This document shows, in pieces, positions 48,635 through 64,000 of a stretch of 64,000 nucleotides of DNA. Source of the stretch: a virus; IMG/VR virus record IMGVR_UViG_3300045988_176106. One strand, given 5' to 3'. The position numbers were made by a program, and so were the translations under genes. Below the pieces are notes generated by a model. That model was not told where the DNA came from. It saw only the letters and a list, made by a program, of their open reading frames with translations, and did not search any database. Every line of letters starts with the position of its first letter. The stretch's first letter is position 1.

Positions 48635-48909
48635 AGTGTTTTATTTGCAATTTTCTCTTGGATCATTTTATTATCACCAAGATACACTAATTCTTTCTCT
48701 TCAGTATATTTAAATATCTGTGGAACAGTTTTAGGACGAGGAAGACCCAAATTATCAAATATACTTAACAATTCATCTTTAAGTTCAGGACGTTCGTCAA
48801 CATATAGAACTTCAACAGATTCTTCAAAATCATCAAGATAAGATTTTAAAGAATGTAAAGCTTCTTTGCAATGAGGACAATTATTTTTTGAATAAATTTT
48901 AATTTTCAT
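48631..48909 (-). CDS. glutaredoxin-like redoxin
   Basis: Start trimmed to MKIKIYSKNNCPHCKEAL. CPHC active site and TVPQIF motif. Lies between nrdB and nrdA. Confidence 0.75.
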   Translation of the reverse strand: MKIKIYSKNNCPHCKEALHSLKSYLDDFEESVEVLYVDERPELKDELLSIFDNLGLPRPKTVPQIFKYTEEKELVYLGDNKMIQEKIANKTL

Positions 48910-50092
48910 TAAATAACCCTTTAATCTCTTTGGTGGATACACCAGGAGTATCATGCTCTATATCATCAGGCAAACCAAGATTAATCATAGTTAATCCTTC
49001 ACGATAATCACCAGATCCATAATCAACAATGCCTTTTTCATATGTAGTAATTTCTACTTCTTGAGGAGCCGGTTGATCGCCCATATCATTGCCAAGCCAC
49101 TTATTAATCCATACAATAGGGTTTTCATGTACAGATTCAAATCCAGCAACTTCTTCTAGAGTGCCAATTTCAAAATACTCTAATCTTGTAGTAGCAAGAT
49201 AGCAAAGATATTTAAACAATATCTTTTCATTCAATCCGAATATTTCACCTTCTTTAAATAGGTATTTTGCCCATTCTGCTTCTTCAAGAATAACAGTACG
49301 CCACATTTCTTTAATAGCTTTTATTACTTCAGGATCTTTAGCAATAAAGGCAATATCAGGATCGTCATTTTTTACTATTTTTATAAGATTATTAGTTATA
49401 GCAACATGCACTTTCTCATCGCGGGCAATAAGAGTTATAATCCGAGCAAGACCTGGAAGTACACCATTTTTACCAAATGCAAAACTACAAGCAAATGAGA
49501 TATGGAATCTTAATGCCTCTAATGAATTTGCAGCATGTAGTGCCAAATAAATAGCTTTACAAGCTTCATATCTGGAAACTTTATTTTCATAAAATAATTG
49601 AACTTTTTCTATAGCATCATCATAATACTTAGCAATAGAATCAGAACATGTAACAATCTCTTTGATATCCAATACCGTATCTAAAACATCTTTAGGCTGA
49701 GAGAAGCTTGATTGGATAATATGAGTATACGATTTACTATGTAAAGTCTCATATGCACTCCACCATTTAACACATGCTTCTAATGTAGGATCACTAGTAG
49801 CTATGCCAAATACTAAATCAGGAGCACGTCCCATAATACTATCTAGCATTATTTGACGTTTAATATTAGATATAACTATATGTTCTTGGGCCTTAGTTAG
49901 GCTACTAAAGTTAGATCTATCTTTTGACATGTCAATCTCTTCAGGACGCCAAAAGAATCCAAGTTGTTGATCTAACAATTTAAGAATAACAGGATATTTA
50001 GGATCATCAAAACGCTGAATAGATAAACCACTTTGTTTATTTAAAAATAGTGTATCAGATACAGCATCTCTATTAAAAACTTTTGAAGACAT
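48899..50092 (-). CDS. nrdB: ribonucleoside-diphosphate reductase, class I beta subunit
   Basis: 397 aa. FFWRPEEIDMSKD and EALRFHISFA. The N terminus is colinear with bacterial NrdB, so the coding region appears complete. Confidence 0.95.
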   Translation of the reverse strand: MSSKVFNRDAVSDTLFLNKQSGLSIQRFDDPKYPVILKLLDQQLGFFWRPEEIDMSKDRSNFSSLTKAQEHIVISNIKRQIMLDSIMGRAPDLVFGIATSDPTLEACVKWWSAYETLHSKSYTHIIQSSFSQPKDVLDTVLDIKEIVTCSDSIAKYYDDAIEKVQLFYENKVSRYEACKAIYLALHAANSLEALRFHISFACSFAFGKNGVLPGLARIITLIARDEKVHVAITNNLIKIVKNDDPDIAFIAKDPEVIKAIKEMWRTVILEEAEWAKYLFKEGEIFGLNEKILFKYLCYLATTRLEYFEIGTLEEVAGFESVHENPIVWINKWLGNDMGDQPAPQEVEITTYEKGIVDYGSGDYREGLTMINLGLPDDIEHDTPGVSTKEIKGLFNEN

Positions 50093-56543: not shown

Positions 56544-56565
56544 AGGCTGAGATTTCTCTCAGCCT
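56544..56565 (-). terminator. intrinsic terminator after dnaE
   Basis: Minus strand reads AGGCUGAGA GAAA UCUCAGCCU followed by UUUUCUUUUUUAUAU. The stem overlaps the dnaE stop codon. Confidence 0.8.
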
Positions 56566-57997
56566 ATCTTGTAGCTATCGTAACATCAGGAAGCTTGTTT
56601 AACATCCTTATTACATCGACATCAATCAATTTGGTATAAAATGGTCCAAATCTCATTTCAAAATCAGAGTCTTTCCTATCTATATTGACAGAATCGTATT
56701 TATTAGTAGGCACTTTAACCACTATTGATACAGCACCATCTGAGTCATATTTATTCTCAGGAATAATTTCTTGTATCTTATTCAATATAGACTTAAATCT
56801 TACACTACTAGGAATATCATCTAATATAATAAAAGCTTCTTTTACTTTATTTTTATGTTCTTCTTCTCGAACCTGTTCTTTGCATCGTTCACCTAAATCT
56901 ATAGCAACATTAACAATAGAATCAATTTCGCCATTACCTTTATAACTAGGCTTAGCAGATATAACTAATTGAAGATAATTACCAGAACGTAAAATATCTT
57001 TTAGTTTAGTATAATTAGGATCAAACACAGTAGCAGAAAAACGGTTTCCTTCACGATCTATACAATCTAGGAAGCACATCTTCTTACCAGTACGAGTATT
57101 TAAAGCACGAACAGATGAAATATAAGCAACAACAGACCCAGAAAACATACCTTTGTACATTACAGCAGATTTAACTTCTTCTGATGTAAAATGTCTTTCG
57201 GTAACAGTTTTTACTACTAGATCCATAGGATCGCCAGAAATATATACTCCAATAAAATTCTTTTCGTCTTCAAGAATATCAAATAAAGAAAATTCTTTAA
57301 AGGTTTTATCATCAAAATATTCAGATTCTTTTGATAAAAATTCTTTATATCTTTCTTTTATTTCATTAGTCATCTTGCCATCTTTAGCTATTTCGCGCTT
57401 AAATGATTTCTTAGGATCAAAGTCTAATTTAAACTTTTCATAAGAACGGAGCATAACACTTCGTTTATATCCAAAACAATCCATAGATCCAGAACGTATT
57501 AAAGCATCAATAGCTTTTTTAGTAATACTTGATCCAAATAAATGTGTTTTTAATAAGAAATCGCCGAAACTTTTAAATGGGCGCAATTCCATAATTTGCT
57601 TATAAATAGGTTCACCAATATTAACAATACCAGATAAACCATAAATAATATCATTATTCCTATCTAGTGTAAAACTACTATCAGATTCATTAAGATTAGG
57701 AGGTAAAATTTTAATACCATGAGCTTTAGCATCTTCCATATAAATACGTTGAGTAGTAGAATCAGTCTCACAACTTATAATAGAACAATAAAACTCATTA
57801 GGATAATTGGCTTTAAGCCAAGCAGTATAATAGGTCAAGTGACCATACGAGTAGGCATGCGAAGCATTAAATGCATACTGCGCAAACAGCATTAGTTCTT
57901 CCCAAAATGAACTAACTTTCCTTTCATCTTCGCCAGAAGCAACAGCACCACTAATAAACTTATCTCTTAGTGATGCAAGTAAAGCAGCATCTTTTTT
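56564..57997 (-). CDS. dnaE: DNA polymerase III alpha (DnaE-type) exon 4 (fingers C-terminal part, beta-binding and OB regions)
   Basis: Begins KKDAALLASLRDKF..., completing the LRKAVG|KK motif. Contains YAFNASHAYSYGHLTYYTAWLKANYPNEF (DnaE GFNKSH-type motif). Confidence 0.9.
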   Translation of the reverse strand, partial: KKDAALLASLRDKFISGAVASGEDERKVSSFWEELMLFAQYAFNASHAYSYGHLTYYTAWLKANYPNEFYCSIISCETDSTTQRIYMEDAKAHGIKILPPNLNESDSSFTLDRNNDIIYGLSGIVNIGEPIYKQIMELRPFKSFGDFLLKTHLFGSSITKKAIDALIRSGSMDCFGYKRSVMLRSYEKFKLDFDPKKSFKREIAKDGKMTNEIKERYKEFLSKESEYFDDKTFKEFSLFDILEDEKNFIGVYISGDPMDLVVKTVTERHFTSEEVKSAVMYKGMFSGSVVAYISSVRALNTRTGKKMCFLDCIDREGNRFSATVFDPNYTKLKDILRSGNYLQLVISAKPSYKGNGEIDSIVNVAIDLGERCKEQVREEEHKNKVKEAFIILDDIPSSVRFKSILNKIQEIIPENKYDSDGAVSIVVKVPTNKYDSVNIDRKDSDFEMRFGPFYTKLIDVDVIRMLNKLPDVTIATR

Positions 57998-58239
57998 CAA
58001 TTATGTTATTCTATTGGCTTTTTATCCAATAGTTCTTATACTTCATATTTGTATAAGTTCGGCGTACATTTTCATCCTATAGGGATGTCGAACACTCTTG
58101 GAGATATTATATCTTTTCAATCTCTACGCTCTACGGTGGCTTATAGTTTCTATAAACTTACCTCGGTATTAGCATCTCAGCCTTCACCGATTTTGCTCGA
58201 TACACATTGTTTTATTACTAAAACAAGGGGCAATTACTC
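57998..58239 (-). mobile_element. ORF-less intron 3 (group I-type), 242 nt
   Basis: The 5' exon ends ...GTAGGT (U at -1) and the intron ends ...AATTG (terminal G). An in-frame stop lies 2 codons into the intron. Dense hairpins and GC-richer than the exons. Shares a 17-nt core block with intron 2. Confidence 0.75.
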
Positions 58240-58696
58240 ACCTACAGCTTTTCTTAGTTTATCTGCTTCTATCTCTGTGAATCCGCACATATCCATTGAT
58301 AAACGGAGGAAACCTTCCTGAAAAATCAATTCGTTATGTGCATTTTCAAAAATATAATTATATTTTGGGAATATAAAGTCAGTCTTAGGGATTTCTCCAC
58401 TGATCTTACCAATTATACGTTCGACCAAGCCATGTATACCCATTGGCCCAGGCCGCCATGTACTAACACATACTGCTATATCATGTATTGTTTTAGGTTT
58501 ACACTTATTAATAAAAGAAGACATACCAGATTCTTCAAATTGGAATATGCCATAATTACGCCTATCCCACATAATCTTATATGCTTTTTCATCATCCATT
58601 GGTAATGTATACCAATCTATATCAATACCATGTCTATCTTTAATAAGCTTCTTAGCATACTCAAGTACGCCAAGCGTTTTTAAACCTAATATATCT
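58240..58696 (-). CDS. dnaE: DnaE-type polymerase exon 3
   Basis: Begins (L)DILGLKTLGVLEYA and contains GIFQFEESGM and STWRPGPMG (DnaE finger motifs). Ends ...EADKLRKAVG. Confidence 0.9.
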
Positions 58697-58966
58697 CAAA
58701 AAAATTCTATATATCAAATATATAGTGTTAAGTTTTTTATCTTAACAGTCCAGACTTCTTTTAATCTGGTTCGGCATATTTTTTCAACCGTTCTGGTTGC
58801 ACCGGCCTCGTGGGTAGATTATATTCTGATTAACAGTTTCACCACCTATGCTCTGCGCCTGACTATTGCTTTAAAATAGCCTTCGGACTCGAGTTAGCAT
58901 CACAGCCTTCTCGCTTAATTCCGGTGTAATAATAACCAATATTCCTATTGGAAACGCCAGATTCCT
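58697..58966 (-). mobile_element. ORF-less intron 2 (group I-type), 270 nt
   Basis: Splits a Leu codon (CT|A). The 5' exon ends in T and the intron ends ...TTTTTTTG. The junction restores GIVKLDILGL. Structured and GC-richer than the exons. Confidence 0.75.
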
Positions 58967-59922
58967 AGCTTAACAATACCAGCATATTCTTCAATTTTGT
59001 TCCCTTCCCATTGGGTAACAGTTTTACCTTTACTATCCCATAATGGAACATCTTCCCATAATGGTCTATCGGATAACGCTACTCCACAATTATGTACTGC
59101 AATACCATTAGCAACATATGAAGAATCATCTAAAACAGTAAGATTATATACATTAACTGTTTCATCATTCGATTCATTGTAATAATTAGACTGTTTCCAT
59201 ACATCAAGAACTAATCTTGTGGAAAGGCCTTTCCCTCCGGTATGTGAACTAACAACACCATAATGGCGACTTACATTTCCTGCTTTTACCCACCTACATT
59301 TACCAATATATAATCCATCTTCATCTGGCTCATCACTAAGACTGTCAAGTATAAGAATAGGATGATCAAGTGTACATTTTACAAATGAAAAATCATCATA
59401 ATTAGTTTGTTGATAGGCTAGATGAACAAGATTACTCTTTTTAGATTCATTTACTTGAGTATCTACTACAGGTTTCCAATTTAATGAAGCTGTTAAAGCT
59501 AAATATCCAACCTTAACATCTTCGATGTTCATATACTCAGGTTCAGAATCTTCAGCTCTTTTTATAGTAACTTTGGTTCCTGCAACGAAGCAAGCATGCA
59601 ATCCGGTACTTGAAATACAGTCTTGTAGCTTAATAGCATCATCCCAGATTTCTTTAATTTCTGGATCAGAATTATAAAGTTTCTTTATATCAGAATTTTC
59701 TTCTAATAAAACTTCTAATCTGGGACAATTTATATCAGGCATAAGATTAGAAATCTTATTTGCCTTTTCAAATGACATACCATGAATGCGGGCAGCCGAT
59801 TTAAATACTTGTTTACCAGCGGTATAAGTAATAGTACCCAAATGAGCAAATCCATCACCGTATTTTGCTTTTAAATAATCAAATACCTTTTGACGTTTAT
59901 CATTACTGAAGTCACTATCGAT
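58967..59922 (-). CDS. dnaE: DnaE-type polymerase exon 2 (includes intein)
   Basis: Begins IDSDFSNDKRQKVFDYLKAKYGDGFAHLGTITYTAG. Contains STGLHA-[intein]-CGVALSDRPLWEDVPLW. Ends EEYAGIVK(L). Confidence 0.9.
59089..59592 (-). mobile_element. mini-intein (168 aa, no endonuclease domain) in the DnaE HAxGV motif
   Basis: Starts CFVAGTKVTI (block A), has an internal CTLDHPI (block B TxxH), and ends NGIAVHN with a +1 Cys (CGVALS). Removing it restores GLHA-CGVALS, matching the bacterial KHAGGVVI motif. Confidence 0.85.
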
Positions 59923-61023
59923 CCTTTATGTTCAGTATGGGTCGCTAATTCCATACCCGGGAATAACCCAGCTGCATATTACTATGCAGAGCAGACTATA
60001 TCTTCACCATATTAAAATTAACTTAGGTGCTGTGCGCTTGGAGCCGCTTGGCTCTACTTCCAAAGGAATAGTCGTTACACGTTCAATATATAAAATATCG
60101 CTTCGCTCGGTATTGTCCATGTAGGAGTTCCACCGAATTCACACAGTTTTCATTTACTCTTTTCAGAATAAAGGGACTTTAAATCAACAAATCTATTATA
60201 TTTTCTATCTAAAAATATAGTTGAATCATTATATAGATAATTCATAATATTGAAAACCTGAATGTTCCCACCAATATCTATATCATAATTATCATTATTC
60301 CTGTCCTTATGTCTTTTATTAAGGGTTTTATGTTCAAACCCTATATATTTAAGGACAGAATTTAAAAAAGAAGAAGTTCCGCATAGCCTAAATCTATAAG
60401 TATATCCATTTTTTGCTTTATGTTTAGATAATGACCCATCGCCATCAAAATACCCACGTATAAAATGACGAACAAGATTCTCATCTATATTTGGAAAAAC
60501 TAATTTAAAAGTCTTGTTTTCTAAACATCCATGACTTATCAGATCATTCTTAAGTTTATTACTATAAATAATTACCCTAGCATACTCTCTATTAATATTA
60601 TTAGTGTACCTAGATATTTTATTATTAGCATTAAGACTTGCTAAAAATTTCTCAAGATGATTGATATCTTCAGTTGAAAGCGACAGTCCTATAGCATCTC
60701 TATCTGAAAGTATATATCCATCTGCATACATAAACCCAAGCCAATATGCTTTTTCTTCAGTATCTATAATATTGAAAAAATTATCATTACATTTATATTT
60801 TTTAGAATTTATAGAATTACTTCTTCTTTTTATATTTTTAGATTCAAGAACCGAATATACAGTATATAAACTTATGTCAAGTTCTTTTGAAATTTTGCAT
60901 CCAGAGATTTTATCATCTGTATACATTTTTACAATTTTATCTTCAATTTCCATATATACACCTTTCAAAAAAATTGATGTATACATATAGTAATTTATAA
61001 TTTAAGATTTGTCAATAATATTA
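59923..61023 (-). mobile_element. group I intron 1 (1101 nt) carrying a LAGLIDADG homing endonuclease ORF
   Basis: The 5' exon ends ...CCGGAT (U) and the intron ends ...AAAGG (G). The junction restores FPD|IDSDF. The minus strand carries AACGACUAUUCC (R-like) and GAAGAUAUAGUC (S-like) elements that can pair as P7. Confidence 0.85.
60150..60986 (-). CDS. intron-encoded double-motif LAGLIDADG homing endonuclease with N-terminal HTH-like region
   Basis: Motifs WLGFMYADGYI and FIRGYFDGDGSL. The N terminus ISKELDISLYTVYSVLESKNIKRR is HTH-like. The start may be the Met at 60953. Confidence 0.85.
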   Translation of the reverse strand: MYTSIFLKGVYMEIEDKIVKMYTDDKISGCKISKELDISLYTVYSVLESKNIKRRSNSINSKKYKCNDNFFNIIDTEEKAYWLGFMYADGYILSDRDAIGLSLSTEDINHLEKFLASLNANNKISRYTNNINREYARVIIYSNKLKNDLISHGCLENKTFKLVFPNIDENLVRHFIRGYFDGDGSLSKHKAKNGYTYRFRLCGTSSFLNSVLKYIGFEHKTLNKRHKDRNNDNYDIDIGGNIQVFNIMNYLYNDSTIFLDRKYNRFVDLKSLYSEKSK

Positions 61024-61278
61024 ATCCGGGAAGCCACCACCAACAGTATCAATACGTTTATGTGGCTCGATAGTTGTCATACCCAGTAAATATAAAATAT
61101 TACTACTATTTGGATTATCAAGGTCTTTAATACCAGCATTGTAAAGATTTAAAAAATAAGAATCAATATGATGGAGCTCACAATGATTAAGCTCAAACAT
61201 GATATTCTTCTTATTATGCAAAAACCACTCCTCTTGGGAGTGGCTTAATACTAATTCTCTTAAAGTTTTATATTTCAT
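61024..61278 (-). CDS. dnaE: DnaE-type polymerase exon 1 (palm N-terminal part; no PHP domain)
   Basis: 85 codons ending ...TVGGGFPD. ELNHCELHHIDSYFLNLYN and NSSNILYLLGMTTIEP are colinear with the E. coli DnaE region just before PDFDVDF. Confidence 0.8.
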
Positions 61279-63999: not shown

Positions 64000-64000
64000 C

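What the first reader, a model, noticed from the sequence alone, without database searches (positions are those of the whole stretch)
56564..61278. DnaE-type replicative polymerase gene fragmented by three self-splicing-type introns and one intein
Four minus-strand ORF fragments are colinear with bacterial DnaE. They form one protein only if three intervening segments are removed. The junctions are ...TVGGGFPD | IDSDFSNDKRQKVFDYLKAKYG (restores the catalytic PDIDxDF motif), ...EEYAGIVK-L(CT|A) | DILGLKTLGV (restores the GxxKxDxLGL motif) and ...EADKLRKAVG | KKDAALLASLRDKF (restores LRxAxGKK). In all three cases the upstream exon ends in T (U at -1), the intervening sequence ends in G, the frame is preserved, and the in-frame read-through hits a stop within a few codons. 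Exon 2 also carries a 168-aa mini-intein. That makes four selfish elements in about 4.7 kb of an essential replication gene. The predicted precursor is 1033 aa and the mature protein 865 aa.
Basis: partly seen in the sequence, partly recalled or inferred. Interest (0 to 1): 0.85.

Follow-up and report, generated by a model that had tools for sequence, protein, structure and literature searches.

The report
Phage DnaE gene: three introns, one intein
The catalytic DNA polymerase gene of an uncultured ~185-kb phage from the human mouth is interrupted by three self-splicing group I introns and one mini-intein, each inside an invariant active-site motif; the description is correct, but this is a new example of a well-known kind of selfish-element mosaic.

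Summary
Four minus-strand exons (61278-61024, 59922-58967, 58696-58240, 57997-56564) join in frame into a 1033-aa precursor. Removing a 168-aa insert gives an 865-aa protein that aligns without junction gaps to Thermus aquaticus DnaE (E 1e-90) and to uninterrupted 859-aa homologues.

Closely related metagenomic phage contigs lack exactly these segments. L003 lacks introns 1 and 2. L004 and L001 lack intron 3.

Intron 1 (1101 nt) is a canonical group I intron (Rfam 86 bits) and carries a LAGLIDADG endonuclease gene. Rfam misses introns 2 and 3 (no hit; 23.6 bits). They nevertheless share a covariation-supported group I, IA-like fold: P2-P9.1, the P3/P7 pseudoknot and a bulge plus invariant G-C in P7. 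A covariance model built only from intron-3 relatives finds intron 2 at 87 bits and the intron 1 core at 35 bits.

The insert has Cys1, TxxH, His-Asn/Cys+1 and a predicted HINT fold.

Across this phage lineage the gene has at least six intron sites plus the intein site. Multi-intron phage polymerase genes and phage genes with both introns and inteins are already described. Verdict: real, interpretation supported, a new member of a known kind, moderate interest. No RNA or protein data were available.

The parts
61024..61278 (-). Exon 1 (85 codons). It ends ...GGGFPD; the last codon, GAT, encodes the first catalytic Asp (Taq D463 equivalent).
   Evidence: L003 is contiguous across this junction.
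59923..61023 (-). Intron 1: a 1101-nt group I intron. The ORF lies between the 5' splice site and the ribozyme core. The proposed guide sequence is GUCC near 60170 (by eye), pairing with exon GGAU. The proposed P10 is UUGAU paired with AUCGA.
   Evidence: Rfam RF00028, 86.4 bits, at 60200-59972. Absent in its entirety from L003, L004 and L001. P1 and P10 were read from the sequence.
60150..60986 (-). Intron-encoded LAGLIDADG homing endonuclease ORF, with two motifs (LGFMYADGYI and IRGYFDGDGSL). It is 278 aa from the first ATG. It is probably 267 aa from ATG 60953, which follows the ribosome-binding site GAAAGGTG.
   Evidence: Pfam PF14528, E 2.4e-8. Identical or 267-aa versions occur on other contigs.
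58967..59922 (-). Exon 2. It encodes IDSDF... to ...GIVK-L(CT) and contains the intein.
59089..59592 (-). Mini-intein coding segment (168 codons, Cys1 to Asn168), inserted in HA|CGV. The +1 Cys codon is 59088-59086.
   Evidence: In-frame insert relative to P0001, P0002 and Taq DnaE. TIGR01443, E 3.4e-7. C1, T74, H77, H167, N168 and C+1 are invariant among inteins at this site. HINT fold.
58697..58966 (-). Intron 2: a 270-nt ORF-less group I (IA-like) intron, splitting the Leu codon (CT|A) just before the third catalytic Asp (Taq D618 equivalent). P1 is AAGCU|AG...CU-GGC(G)UU. P10 is AUCU paired with AGAU.
   Evidence: Absent from L003 and L004. Model R1 gives 87.1 bits, E about 1e-17, at 58929-58770. 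The minimum-energy fold reproduces the helices, z = -3.06. No Rfam hit.
58240..58696 (-). Exon 3 (A-DILGLK... to ...LRKAVG).
57998..58239 (-). Intron 3: a 242-nt ORF-less group I (IA-like) intron between Gly556 and Lys557 of the LRKAVGKK motif. P1 is GGU|GA-GUAA-UU-GCC.
   Evidence: Absent from L004 and L001. Rfam 23.6 bits, E 0.0075. Covariation on alignments A2 and A4. Fold z = -4.79.
56564..57997 (-). Exon 4 (KKDAALL... to the stop codon at 56566-56564): fingers, HhH and OB-like C-terminal part.
56544..56565 (-). Intrinsic-terminator-like hairpin with a T-run, directly after the stop codon.

Best explanation
Proposed pathway. Only the sequence and structure features are shown; every step of the pathway is inferred.

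1. Transcription. The minus strand from 61278 to 56564 is one gene for the catalytic (mid-palm, thumb, fingers, HhH, OB) polypeptide of a phage family-C (DnaE-type) DNA polymerase. It is transcribed as one pre-mRNA.

2. RNA splicing. Three group I ribozymes excise themselves by the usual guanosine-initiated two-step transesterification. In each, U at exon position -1 forms a U-G wobble in P1, the intron ends in G, and P7 provides the G-binding site. In-frame stop codons 0-7 codons into each intron release ribosomes before they can unfold the ribozyme core.

3. Protein splicing. The ligated mRNA encodes a 1033-aa precursor. A class-1 mini-intein (Cys1 ... His-Asn, followed by Cys+1) excises itself and joins HA to CGV. 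This gives the 865-aa enzyme.

4. Partner subunit. The enzyme presumably works with a PHP/N-terminal DnaE polypeptide that relatives encode separately.

5. Spread. All four elements sit in invariant active-site motifs, as expected for homing elements. Intron 1 carries a LAGLIDADG endonuclease that can drive homing into intron-less alleles during co-infection. Introns 2 and 3 and the mini-intein carry no endonuclease and are passengers. Presence/absence polymorphism of all of them in near-identical phage genomes shows gain or loss on short time scales.
For: Gene structure: exact in-frame junctions. Colinear alignment to Taq DnaE across all junctions, E 1e-90. Full-length uninterrupted homologues exist. 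Pfam finds DNA_pol3_alpha, the finger domain and HHH_6.

Intron-less alleles: the three segments are precisely absent in L003, L004 and L001.

Intron 1: Rfam 86.4 bits.

Introns 2 and 3, covariation: on an unguided MAFFT alignment of 10 intron-3 relatives, my structure has 96.5% of cells paired. Shuffled controls give 74% and slid controls give 34-42%. 45 of 64 pairs show changes on both sides.

Introns 2 and 3, model search: model R1 was built without intron 2 or intron 1. It finds intron 2 at 87.1 bits and the intron 1 core at 35.1 bits (E about 1e-5 to 1e-7), and nothing else in the window scores significantly.

P7 pseudoknot: P7 was not part of the model. It is 100% paired in 18 sequences, with 3 of 6 pairs compensatory. 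It includes a pair across a one-base bulge next to an invariant G-C.

Thermodynamic folds reproduce the helices, z = -3.06 and -4.79.

Intein: TIGR01443 scores above its cut-off. Splicing residues are invariant. The model has pLDDT 82 and matches the RecA, Prp8 and DnaB mini-inteins.

Endonuclease: Pfam LAGLIDADG_3.

Prevalence: the 85-aa exon-1 ORF has 34 sequence variants on roughly a hundred contigs, so this is not an assembly accident.
Against: There is no transcript or protein evidence; splicing is inferred.

Intron 2 has no Rfam match, and intron 3 reaches only 23.6 bits against a threshold of 50. None of 13 relatives of these two introns gets an Rfam group I hit.

The exon part of P1 is short: 3-5 base pairs, read by eye only.

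The intein N-terminal half matches no curated profile at threshold (Pfam Intein_splicing, E 0.0023, below cut-off).

The gene lacks the PHP domain and the first ~330 residues of DnaE. Activity therefore depends on a partner that was not seen in the window.
Confidence: 0.9

Rival explanations
1. The gene is a decaying, fragmented pseudogene, or a set of separately translated polymerase fragments. On this view the intervening segments are dead insertions that are not removed from the RNA.
For: Gene callers in public data annotate the pieces as separate ORFs (85, 121 and 478 aa). Introns 2 and 3 carry no ORF. Rfam does not recognise them.
Against: All four exons stay in one frame and keep every invariant DnaE residue. 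The ribozyme helices are intact and covary. The same architecture recurs in dozens of independent assemblies. No other homologue of the catalytic DnaE part was noticed among the ORFs of 130 aa or more in the window, though these were not searched one by one. The exon 2, 3 and 4 segments have no canonical start context of their own: they begin at TTG or at internal ATG codons.
Confidence: 0.04
2. Introns 2 and 3 are removed from the RNA but are not group I ribozymes. They would belong to another, undescribed class, or would need a host or phage protein for excision.
For: There is no Rfam group I hit for intron 2 or for any of 13 relatives. No biochemical data exist.
Against: The helix order P1-P2-P3-P4-P5-P6-P7-P7.1-P3'-P8-P7'-P9 is the group I topology. 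It includes the P3/P7 pseudoknot, the J8/7 segment, a bulged base next to an invariant G-C in P7, U at -1 and a terminal G. P7.1/P7.2 are features used to define the group I classes (PMC3984707); from my own knowledge they are typical of class IA. The model of this family aligns full-length to the Rfam-certified intron 1 core, E about 1e-5 to 1e-7. Dependence on a protein chaperone cannot be excluded.
Confidence: 0.05
3. The arrangement is an assembly chimera that mixes strains with and without the insertions.
For: Several contigs carrying the intron 1 endonuclease are short or end near the intron. This suggests strain heterogeneity that breaks assemblies.
Against: Identical proteins for exon 1, the endonuclease, exon 3 and exon 4 occur on many independent contigs of 180-189 kb from different projects. 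The junctions are exact to the base and obey splice-site rules.
Confidence: 0.01

Closest known systems
Group I introns in DNA polymerase genes of Herelleviridae phages (SPO1, Bastille, Bastillevirinae survey; PMC11878797)
   Same: One to three group I introns, mostly IA-like, interrupt the phage replicative polymerase gene at conserved motifs. Many carry a homing endonuclease in a loop. Presence varies between related phages.
   Different: Those polymerases are not described there as DnaE-type; from my own knowledge SPO1 and Bastille have family A enzymes, whereas this one is family C (DnaE). In that survey the endonucleases are mostly HNH, with LAGLIDADG seen once. No intein is reported in the same gene there.
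Staphylococcus phage Twort orf142 (three group I introns in one gene) and the Twort ribozyme (PDB 1Y0Q). This entry rests on my own knowledge; the Twort ribozyme structure paper is reference 22 of PMC3984707.
   Same: Several small (about 250 nt) ORF-less IA-type introns lie in one phage gene, with a P7.1/P7.2 subdomain and a GNRA-capped P2.
   Different: The host gene is different. The introns 2/3 family here has a different P7 sequence (GCGUA/UACGC or GCAUA/UAUGC, against GACUA/UAGUC) and escapes the Rfam model.
[quoted passage not shown]
   Same: Group I introns and an intein coding sequence occur together in one phage DNA-metabolism gene.
   Different: The gene there is a ribonucleotide reductase, not the polymerase, and each gene carries fewer elements.
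Bacterial DnaE (PolIII alpha) inteins (PMC4760082)
   Same: Inteins inserted in the polymerisation domain of family C polymerases. That survey counts 116, including mini and split forms.
   Different: The reported hot spot is a 75-residue stretch of the fingers. This intein sits earlier, in the conserved HA|(A/C)GV motif. I did not check whether this site already has a name in intein databases.

Membership tests
Group I intron (intron 1) | Match to the curated covariance model RF00028 at or above the gathering score (50 bits) | tested here: met
   86.4 bits, E 1e-21, full model 1-253 at 60200-59972. The default gathering scan lost it to the speed filters.
Group I intron (introns 2 and 3) | Match to RF00028 at or above the gathering score | tested here: not met
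   Intron 3 scores 23.6 bits, E 0.0075. Intron 2 has no hit, even when scanned alone. Relatives get none either. This reflects the model's coverage and does not show that the fold is absent; see the next rows.
Group I intron (introns 2 and 3) | Core topology: the P4-P5-P6 stack, the P3-P8 domain and the P3/P7 pseudoknot, supported by covariation | tested here: met
   On A2, 96.5% of cells are paired and 45 of 64 pairs are compensatory. On A4 (18 sequences), P3 is 95% paired with 5 of 6 pairs compensatory. P7 is 100% paired with 3 of 6 compensatory, although P7 was not in the model. Intron 2 scores 87.1 bits with a model built without it.
Group I intron (all three) | U at exon position -1 forming a U-G wobble with the internal guide sequence (P1), and G as the last intron base | tested here: met
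   Exons end in T and introns end in G. Guide sequences were read from the sequence: intron 1 GUCC, intron 2 GGC(G)UU, intron 3 GCC. The exon pairing is short (3-5 bp) and was assessed by eye only.
Group I intron (all three) | G-binding site in P7: a G-C pair next to a bulged base | tested here: met
   The G-C at A4 columns 137/291 is invariant in 18 of 18 sequences, including intron 1. It is flanked by a one-base bulge and a covarying outer pair (GC 12, AU 5, CG 1).
Group I intron (all three) | Guanosine-dependent self-splicing | not testable with these tools
   This needs in vitro transcription and a GTP assay, or RNA-seq.
Intein (HINT domain, class 1) | In-frame insertion absent from orthologues, starting with Cys/Ser/Thr, ending in His-Asn, followed by Cys/Ser/Thr | tested here: met
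   The 168 aa are absent from P0001, P0002 and Taq DnaE. The insert runs from Cys1 to His167-Asn168, then Cys+1.
Intein (HINT domain, class 1) | Block B TxxH and the C-terminal splicing motif | tested here: met
   T74 and H77 are invariant among 11 inteins at this site. TIGR01443 scores 30.3 bits against a cut-off of 15.6. Pfam Intein_splicing reaches only E 0.0023, below its cut-off.
Intein (HINT domain, class 1) | HINT fold | tested here: met
   AlphaFold2 model with pLDDT 82.1 and pTM 0.77. Foldseek top hits are the BIL2 HINT-type domain (rank 1), then the Prp8, Mtu RecA, Ssp DnaB and NrdJ-1 inteins, with E 5e-7 to 1e-5 and target-normalised TM-scores of 0.6-0.75.
Intein (HINT domain, class 1) | Protein splicing activity | not testable with these tools
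   This needs expression and mass spectrometry.
LAGLIDADG homing endonuclease (intron 1 ORF) | LAGLIDADG motif(s) and a profile match | tested here: met
   Pfam PF14528, E 2.4e-8, above its cut-off. Two motifs are visible in the sequence. Cleavage of the intron-less site was not testable.
DnaE-type (family C) DNA polymerase alpha subunit | Palm, fingers and HhH domains with the three catalytic aspartates | tested here: met
   PF07733, PF17657 and PF14579 all score above their cut-offs. D85, D87 and D405 (precursor numbering) align with Taq D463, D465 and D618.
DnaE-type (family C) DNA polymerase alpha subunit | N-terminal PHP domain in the same polypeptide | tested here: not met
   The protein starts at about the position of E. 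coli residue 335 (my estimate from the motifs). In relatives a separate 598-aa gene carries the PHP domain plus DnaE profile positions 1-363. The product is therefore one part of a two-gene DnaE, not a complete alpha subunit.

The most novel reading that the evidence does not exclude
This reading combines three points.

1. In this lineage of ~185-kb oral phages, the catalytic DnaE gene is an unusually dense arena for homing elements. It has at least six distinct intron insertion sites, with several unrelated introns competing for the KAVG|KK site. It also has an intein site occupied by either mini or full-size LAGLIDADG inteins.

2. Two of the window's introns belong to a widespread IA-like group I subfamily that the standard Rfam model does not detect. 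The subfamily is also present in crAss-like, Staphylococcus, Clostridium/Clostridioides and Bacillus phages and in jumbo Aeromonas and Yersinia phages. Introns of this type would then be systematically under-annotated in phage genomes.

3. The polymerase itself is a naturally split two-gene DnaE.
Probability: 0.45. Interest if true: 0.5.

Novelty: new member of a known kind. Interest (0 to 1): 0.4.

Why it matters
Annotation. Public pipelines call this essential gene as four or five unrelated small ORFs ("hypothetical protein", "error-prone DNA polymerase"). Recognising the introns and the intein restores one polymerase gene.

Detection. The case shows a practical blind spot: Rfam RF00028 misses a whole subfamily of phage group I introns. 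None of 13 relatives was detected, and the gathering scan even lost the 86-bit intron to its filters. Intron content in phage metagenomes is therefore probably underestimated.

Biology. Near-identical genomes that differ only in which of seven or more sites are occupied form a natural data set for studying homing, co-conversion and competition between introns and inteins in an uncultured human-oral phage.

It does not reveal a new mechanism.

Tried and rejected
Rfam at gathering threshold on the whole window gave nothing, a filter artefact.

Rfam on intron 2 alone gave only noise hits (LhrC, miRNA models and similar, E above 1).

Rfam on 3 relatives of intron 2 and 10 relatives of intron 3 gave no group I hit.

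Megablast of the locus, and of 24 kb around it, against GenBank phages gave only a 37-nt match of the intron 3 core to Clostridioides phage pCD1602_4. There is no cultured relative. tblastn of DnaE and of the primase-helicase gave under 31% identity.

PDB sequence search with the intein gave only a marginal hit (E 3.4), so I used structure prediction instead.

I considered further upstream exons or a split intein to explain the missing PHP domain, and rejected both. Uninterrupted homologues have the same N-terminus. The N-terminal 57 residues carry DnaE-like motifs and no intein-C motif; the Cys in FELNHC is Leu in most homologues aligned.

Group II introns were rejected on size (242-270 nt).

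The promoter scan is not informative in this AT-rich DNA: 41 sites against 31.8 +/- 5.2 expected.

Full report
**1. What is in the sequence**

On the minus strand, the ORF listing shows four ORF pieces: 61278-61021, 59841-58945, 58599-58234 and 58000-56564. A 278-aa ORF (60986-60150) lies between the first two.

Joining 61278-61024, 59922-58967, 58696-58240 and 57997-56564 gives 3102 nt in one frame. This encodes 1033 aa plus a stop. Removing CFVAG...AVHN (168 aa) leaves 865 aa.

Every number and coordinate in the finding is reproduced. Each upstream exon ends in T and each intervening segment ends in G. In-frame read-through stops after 0, 7 and 1 codons.

**2. It is one DnaE-type gene**

The 865-aa product carries Pfam DNA_pol3_alpha, DNA_pol3_finger and HHH_6, all above their cut-offs.

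It aligns with Thermus aquaticus DnaE residues 454-960 at E 1.1e-90, with no gap at any of the four junctions.
- PD|IDSDF corresponds to PDIDTDF (catalytic D463 and D465).
- HA|CGV corresponds to HAAGV.
- VKL|DILGL corresponds to LKMDFLGL (catalytic D618).
- RKAVG|KK corresponds to RRAMGKK.

A search of 5.8 billion proteins found uninterrupted 859-aa homologues (P0001, P0002; 61% identity, 100% coverage) on contigs of about 180 kb. It also found many more distant 830-860-aa versions. In the seven-sequence alignment, all four insertion points lie inside invariant columns.

**3. Natural intron-less alleles fix the junctions**

Contig L003 carries P0007, whose exons are 98% identical to the window. 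It is contiguous exactly across 61023-59923 and 58966-58697, but it has intron 3. L004 and L001 are contiguous across 58239-57998.

- Intron 2's boundary can slide by 0-2 nt without changing the mRNA.
- Intron 3's boundary could shift by one base, giving a synonymous codon.

**4. Class of the intervening sequences**

*Intron 1.* It matches Rfam RF00028 over the whole model at 86.4 bits, E 1e-21. The default gathering scan had lost it to the speed filters.

Its ORF lies between the 5' splice site and the ribozyme core. The ORF is a double-motif LAGLIDADG endonuclease (Pfam PF14528, E 2.4e-8).

*Introns 2 and 3 in Rfam.* Intron 3 reaches only 23.6 bits (E 0.0075), and intron 2 has no Rfam hit even when scanned alone.

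*Relatives found by BLAST.*
- Relatives of intron 3 occur in crAss-like phages cr118_1 and cr6_1, Staphylococcus phages, Bacillus phage PJN02, Clostridioides phage pCD1602_4 (two copies), Clostridium perfringens phages and an Arcanobacterium phage. They usually lie between two halves of a gene, or just after an annotated endonuclease.
- Relatives of intron 2 occur between split RNA polymerase genes of Aeromonas jumbo phages, and between gyrase A fragments of Yersinia phage phiR1-37.
- None of these relatives is recognised by Rfam.

*Structure proposed from the sequences.* I derived the following elements:
- a GNRA-capped P2;
- P3, P4, P5, P6/P6a;
- P7, with a bulged base;
- P7.1, with an optional P7.2;
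- P3', P8, J8/7, P7';
- P9 and P9.1, and a terminal G.

*Test on an unguided alignment.* On a MAFFT alignment of 10 intron-3 relatives, 96.5% of cells pair. Shuffled controls give 74% and slid controls give 34-42%. 45 of 64 pairs change on both sides, and 0 of 500 shuffles reach any of the measures.

*Test with a covariance model.* I built a model from the core of these 10 sequences only, leaving P7 out.
- It finds intron 2 at 87.1 bits, E about 1e-17.
- It finds the Aeromonas and Yersinia elements at 63-84 bits.
- It finds the Rfam-certified core of intron 1 at 35.1 bits, E about 1e-5 to 1e-7.
- Nothing else in the 64-kb window scores significantly.

*The P7 pseudoknot.* P7 was not modelled, yet it is 100% paired in all 18 sequences. 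Compensatory changes link the three introns of the window: GCGUA/UACGC in intron 3, GCAUA/UAUGC in intron 2 and GACUA/UAGUC in intron 1. An invariant G-C lies next to a one-base bulge, which is the arrangement of the group I G-binding site.

*Independent folding.* Minimum-energy folds reproduce the helices, with z = -3.06 and -4.79.

*P1 and P10.* Pairings can be drawn for all three introns directly from the sequence, but they are short.

*Conclusion.* All three are group I introns. Introns 2 and 3 belong to an IA-like subfamily that the Rfam model does not cover. P7.1/P7.2 are features used to define the group I classes (PMC3984707).

**5. The intein**

The 168-aa insert is absent from uninterrupted homologues. 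It starts with Cys, has TxxH (T74, H77), and ends His-Asn followed by Cys.

It matches TIGR01443 above its cut-off. It shares its invariant splicing residues with the large LAGLIDADG-containing inteins that occupy the same site in relatives.

An AlphaFold2 model (pLDDT 82, pTM 0.77) matches solved HINT-fold proteins. The top hit is a BIL2 domain, followed by the Prp8, RecA, DnaB and NrdJ-1 inteins, at E 5e-7 to 1e-5.

The intein evolves faster than its exteins: 75-79% identity against 93-100% in the closest relatives.

**6. Context**

The window's own proteins occur on contigs of 180-189 kb from JGI, ENA and Logan. Samples carrying the intron 1 endonuclease include human oral metagenomes. No cultured relative exists in GenBank phages.

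The gene lies in a minus-strand replication module. Neighbours, identified through their counterparts in relatives, are a PD-(D/E)XK nuclease, a primase-helicase and a ribonucleotide reductase. An intrinsic-terminator-like hairpin follows the gene.

The product lacks the PHP domain. In relatives a separate 598-aa gene 4.7-5.8 kb upstream encodes the PHP domain plus DnaE profile positions 1-363. In the window this gene would lie beyond base 64000.

**7. Population picture**

The points at which ORFs are truncated in relatives indicate six classes of intron site:
- PD|ID;
- KL|D;
- YRP|GP;
- FQEG|(F), with two different read-throughs;
- KAVG|KK, with at least five different read-throughs, meaning different introns;
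- FAQYA|FNASHA.

The intein site carries either a mini or a full-size intein. The window's allele carries three of these introns plus the mini-intein.

**8. Mechanism and novelty**

Shown here: gene structure, exact junctions, ribozyme and intein architecture, and polymorphism between genomes. Inferred: self-splicing, protein splicing, homing by the LAGLIDADG enzyme, and function together with the PHP subunit.

Phage polymerase genes with up to three group I introns are documented (PMC11878797). DnaE inteins are common (PMC4760082). From my own knowledge, genes combining introns and inteins occur in Bacillus prophage ribonucleotide reductase genes, and Twort orf142 has three introns.

This is therefore a new member of a known kind. 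Two useful side results are an intron subfamily that Rfam does not detect, and a two-gene DnaE.

Noticed in passing
L001:2361-4157, L003:1-1260, L004:1-1260 (would lie beyond window base 64000): In relatives, DnaE is encoded by two genes. A 598-aa PHP + N-terminal palm protein (DnaE profile positions 1-363) is separated by eight unrelated genes (radical SAM, spermine-synthase-like and others) from the catalytic gene studied here. No split-intein signature was seen at the N-terminus of the catalytic gene; the C-terminus of the 598-aa protein was not examined.
   Followed up: partly
window 57998-58239 and 58697-58966; L005-L017: The introns 2/3 type of group I intron is invisible to Rfam RF00028: no hit in 13 relatives. 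It occurs unannotated in crAss-like phages, Staphylococcus, Clostridium/Clostridioides, Bacillus and Arcanobacterium phages, and in jumbo Aeromonas and Yersinia phages, where it splits helicase, RNA polymerase, gyrase A and tape-measure genes.
   Followed up: yes
window 1-64000 (Rfam scan): The default gathering-threshold Rfam scan returned nothing, although intron 1 scores 86 bits (threshold 50) in E-value mode. The speed filters dropped a true hit.
   Followed up: yes
relatives P0004-P0045, P0146-P0173: There are at least six intron insertion sites in this gene across the lineage. Several different introns occupy KAVG|KK. Large LAGLIDADG inteins replace the mini-intein in some genomes. P0164 combines the large intein with intron 2.
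   Followed up: partly
L013:32-311 and L013:561-822 (Clostridioides phage pCD1602_4): Two copies of the intron-3-type ribozyme lie about 250 nt apart in one unannotated gene.
   Followed up: no
window 60987-61015 and 60953-60970: A TTGACA-17-TACTAT promoter-like site lies just inside intron 1. A ribosome-binding site, GAAAGGTG, lies before the second ATG (60953). The endonuclease may therefore have its own promoter and be 267 aa, as in cluster members such as P0138. The promoter scan is not significant in this AT-rich DNA.
   Followed up: partly
L001:19806-21845: The ribonucleotide reductase small-subunit gene of a relative is 679 aa, against a 397-aa ORF in the same part of the window's module (48899-50092; its identity was not tested). 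This hints at an intein or another insertion there.
   Followed up: no
L018-L023: Many assemblies that contain the intron 1 endonuclease break within a few kb of it. This is consistent with strain-level presence/absence of the introns confusing assemblers.
   Followed up: no
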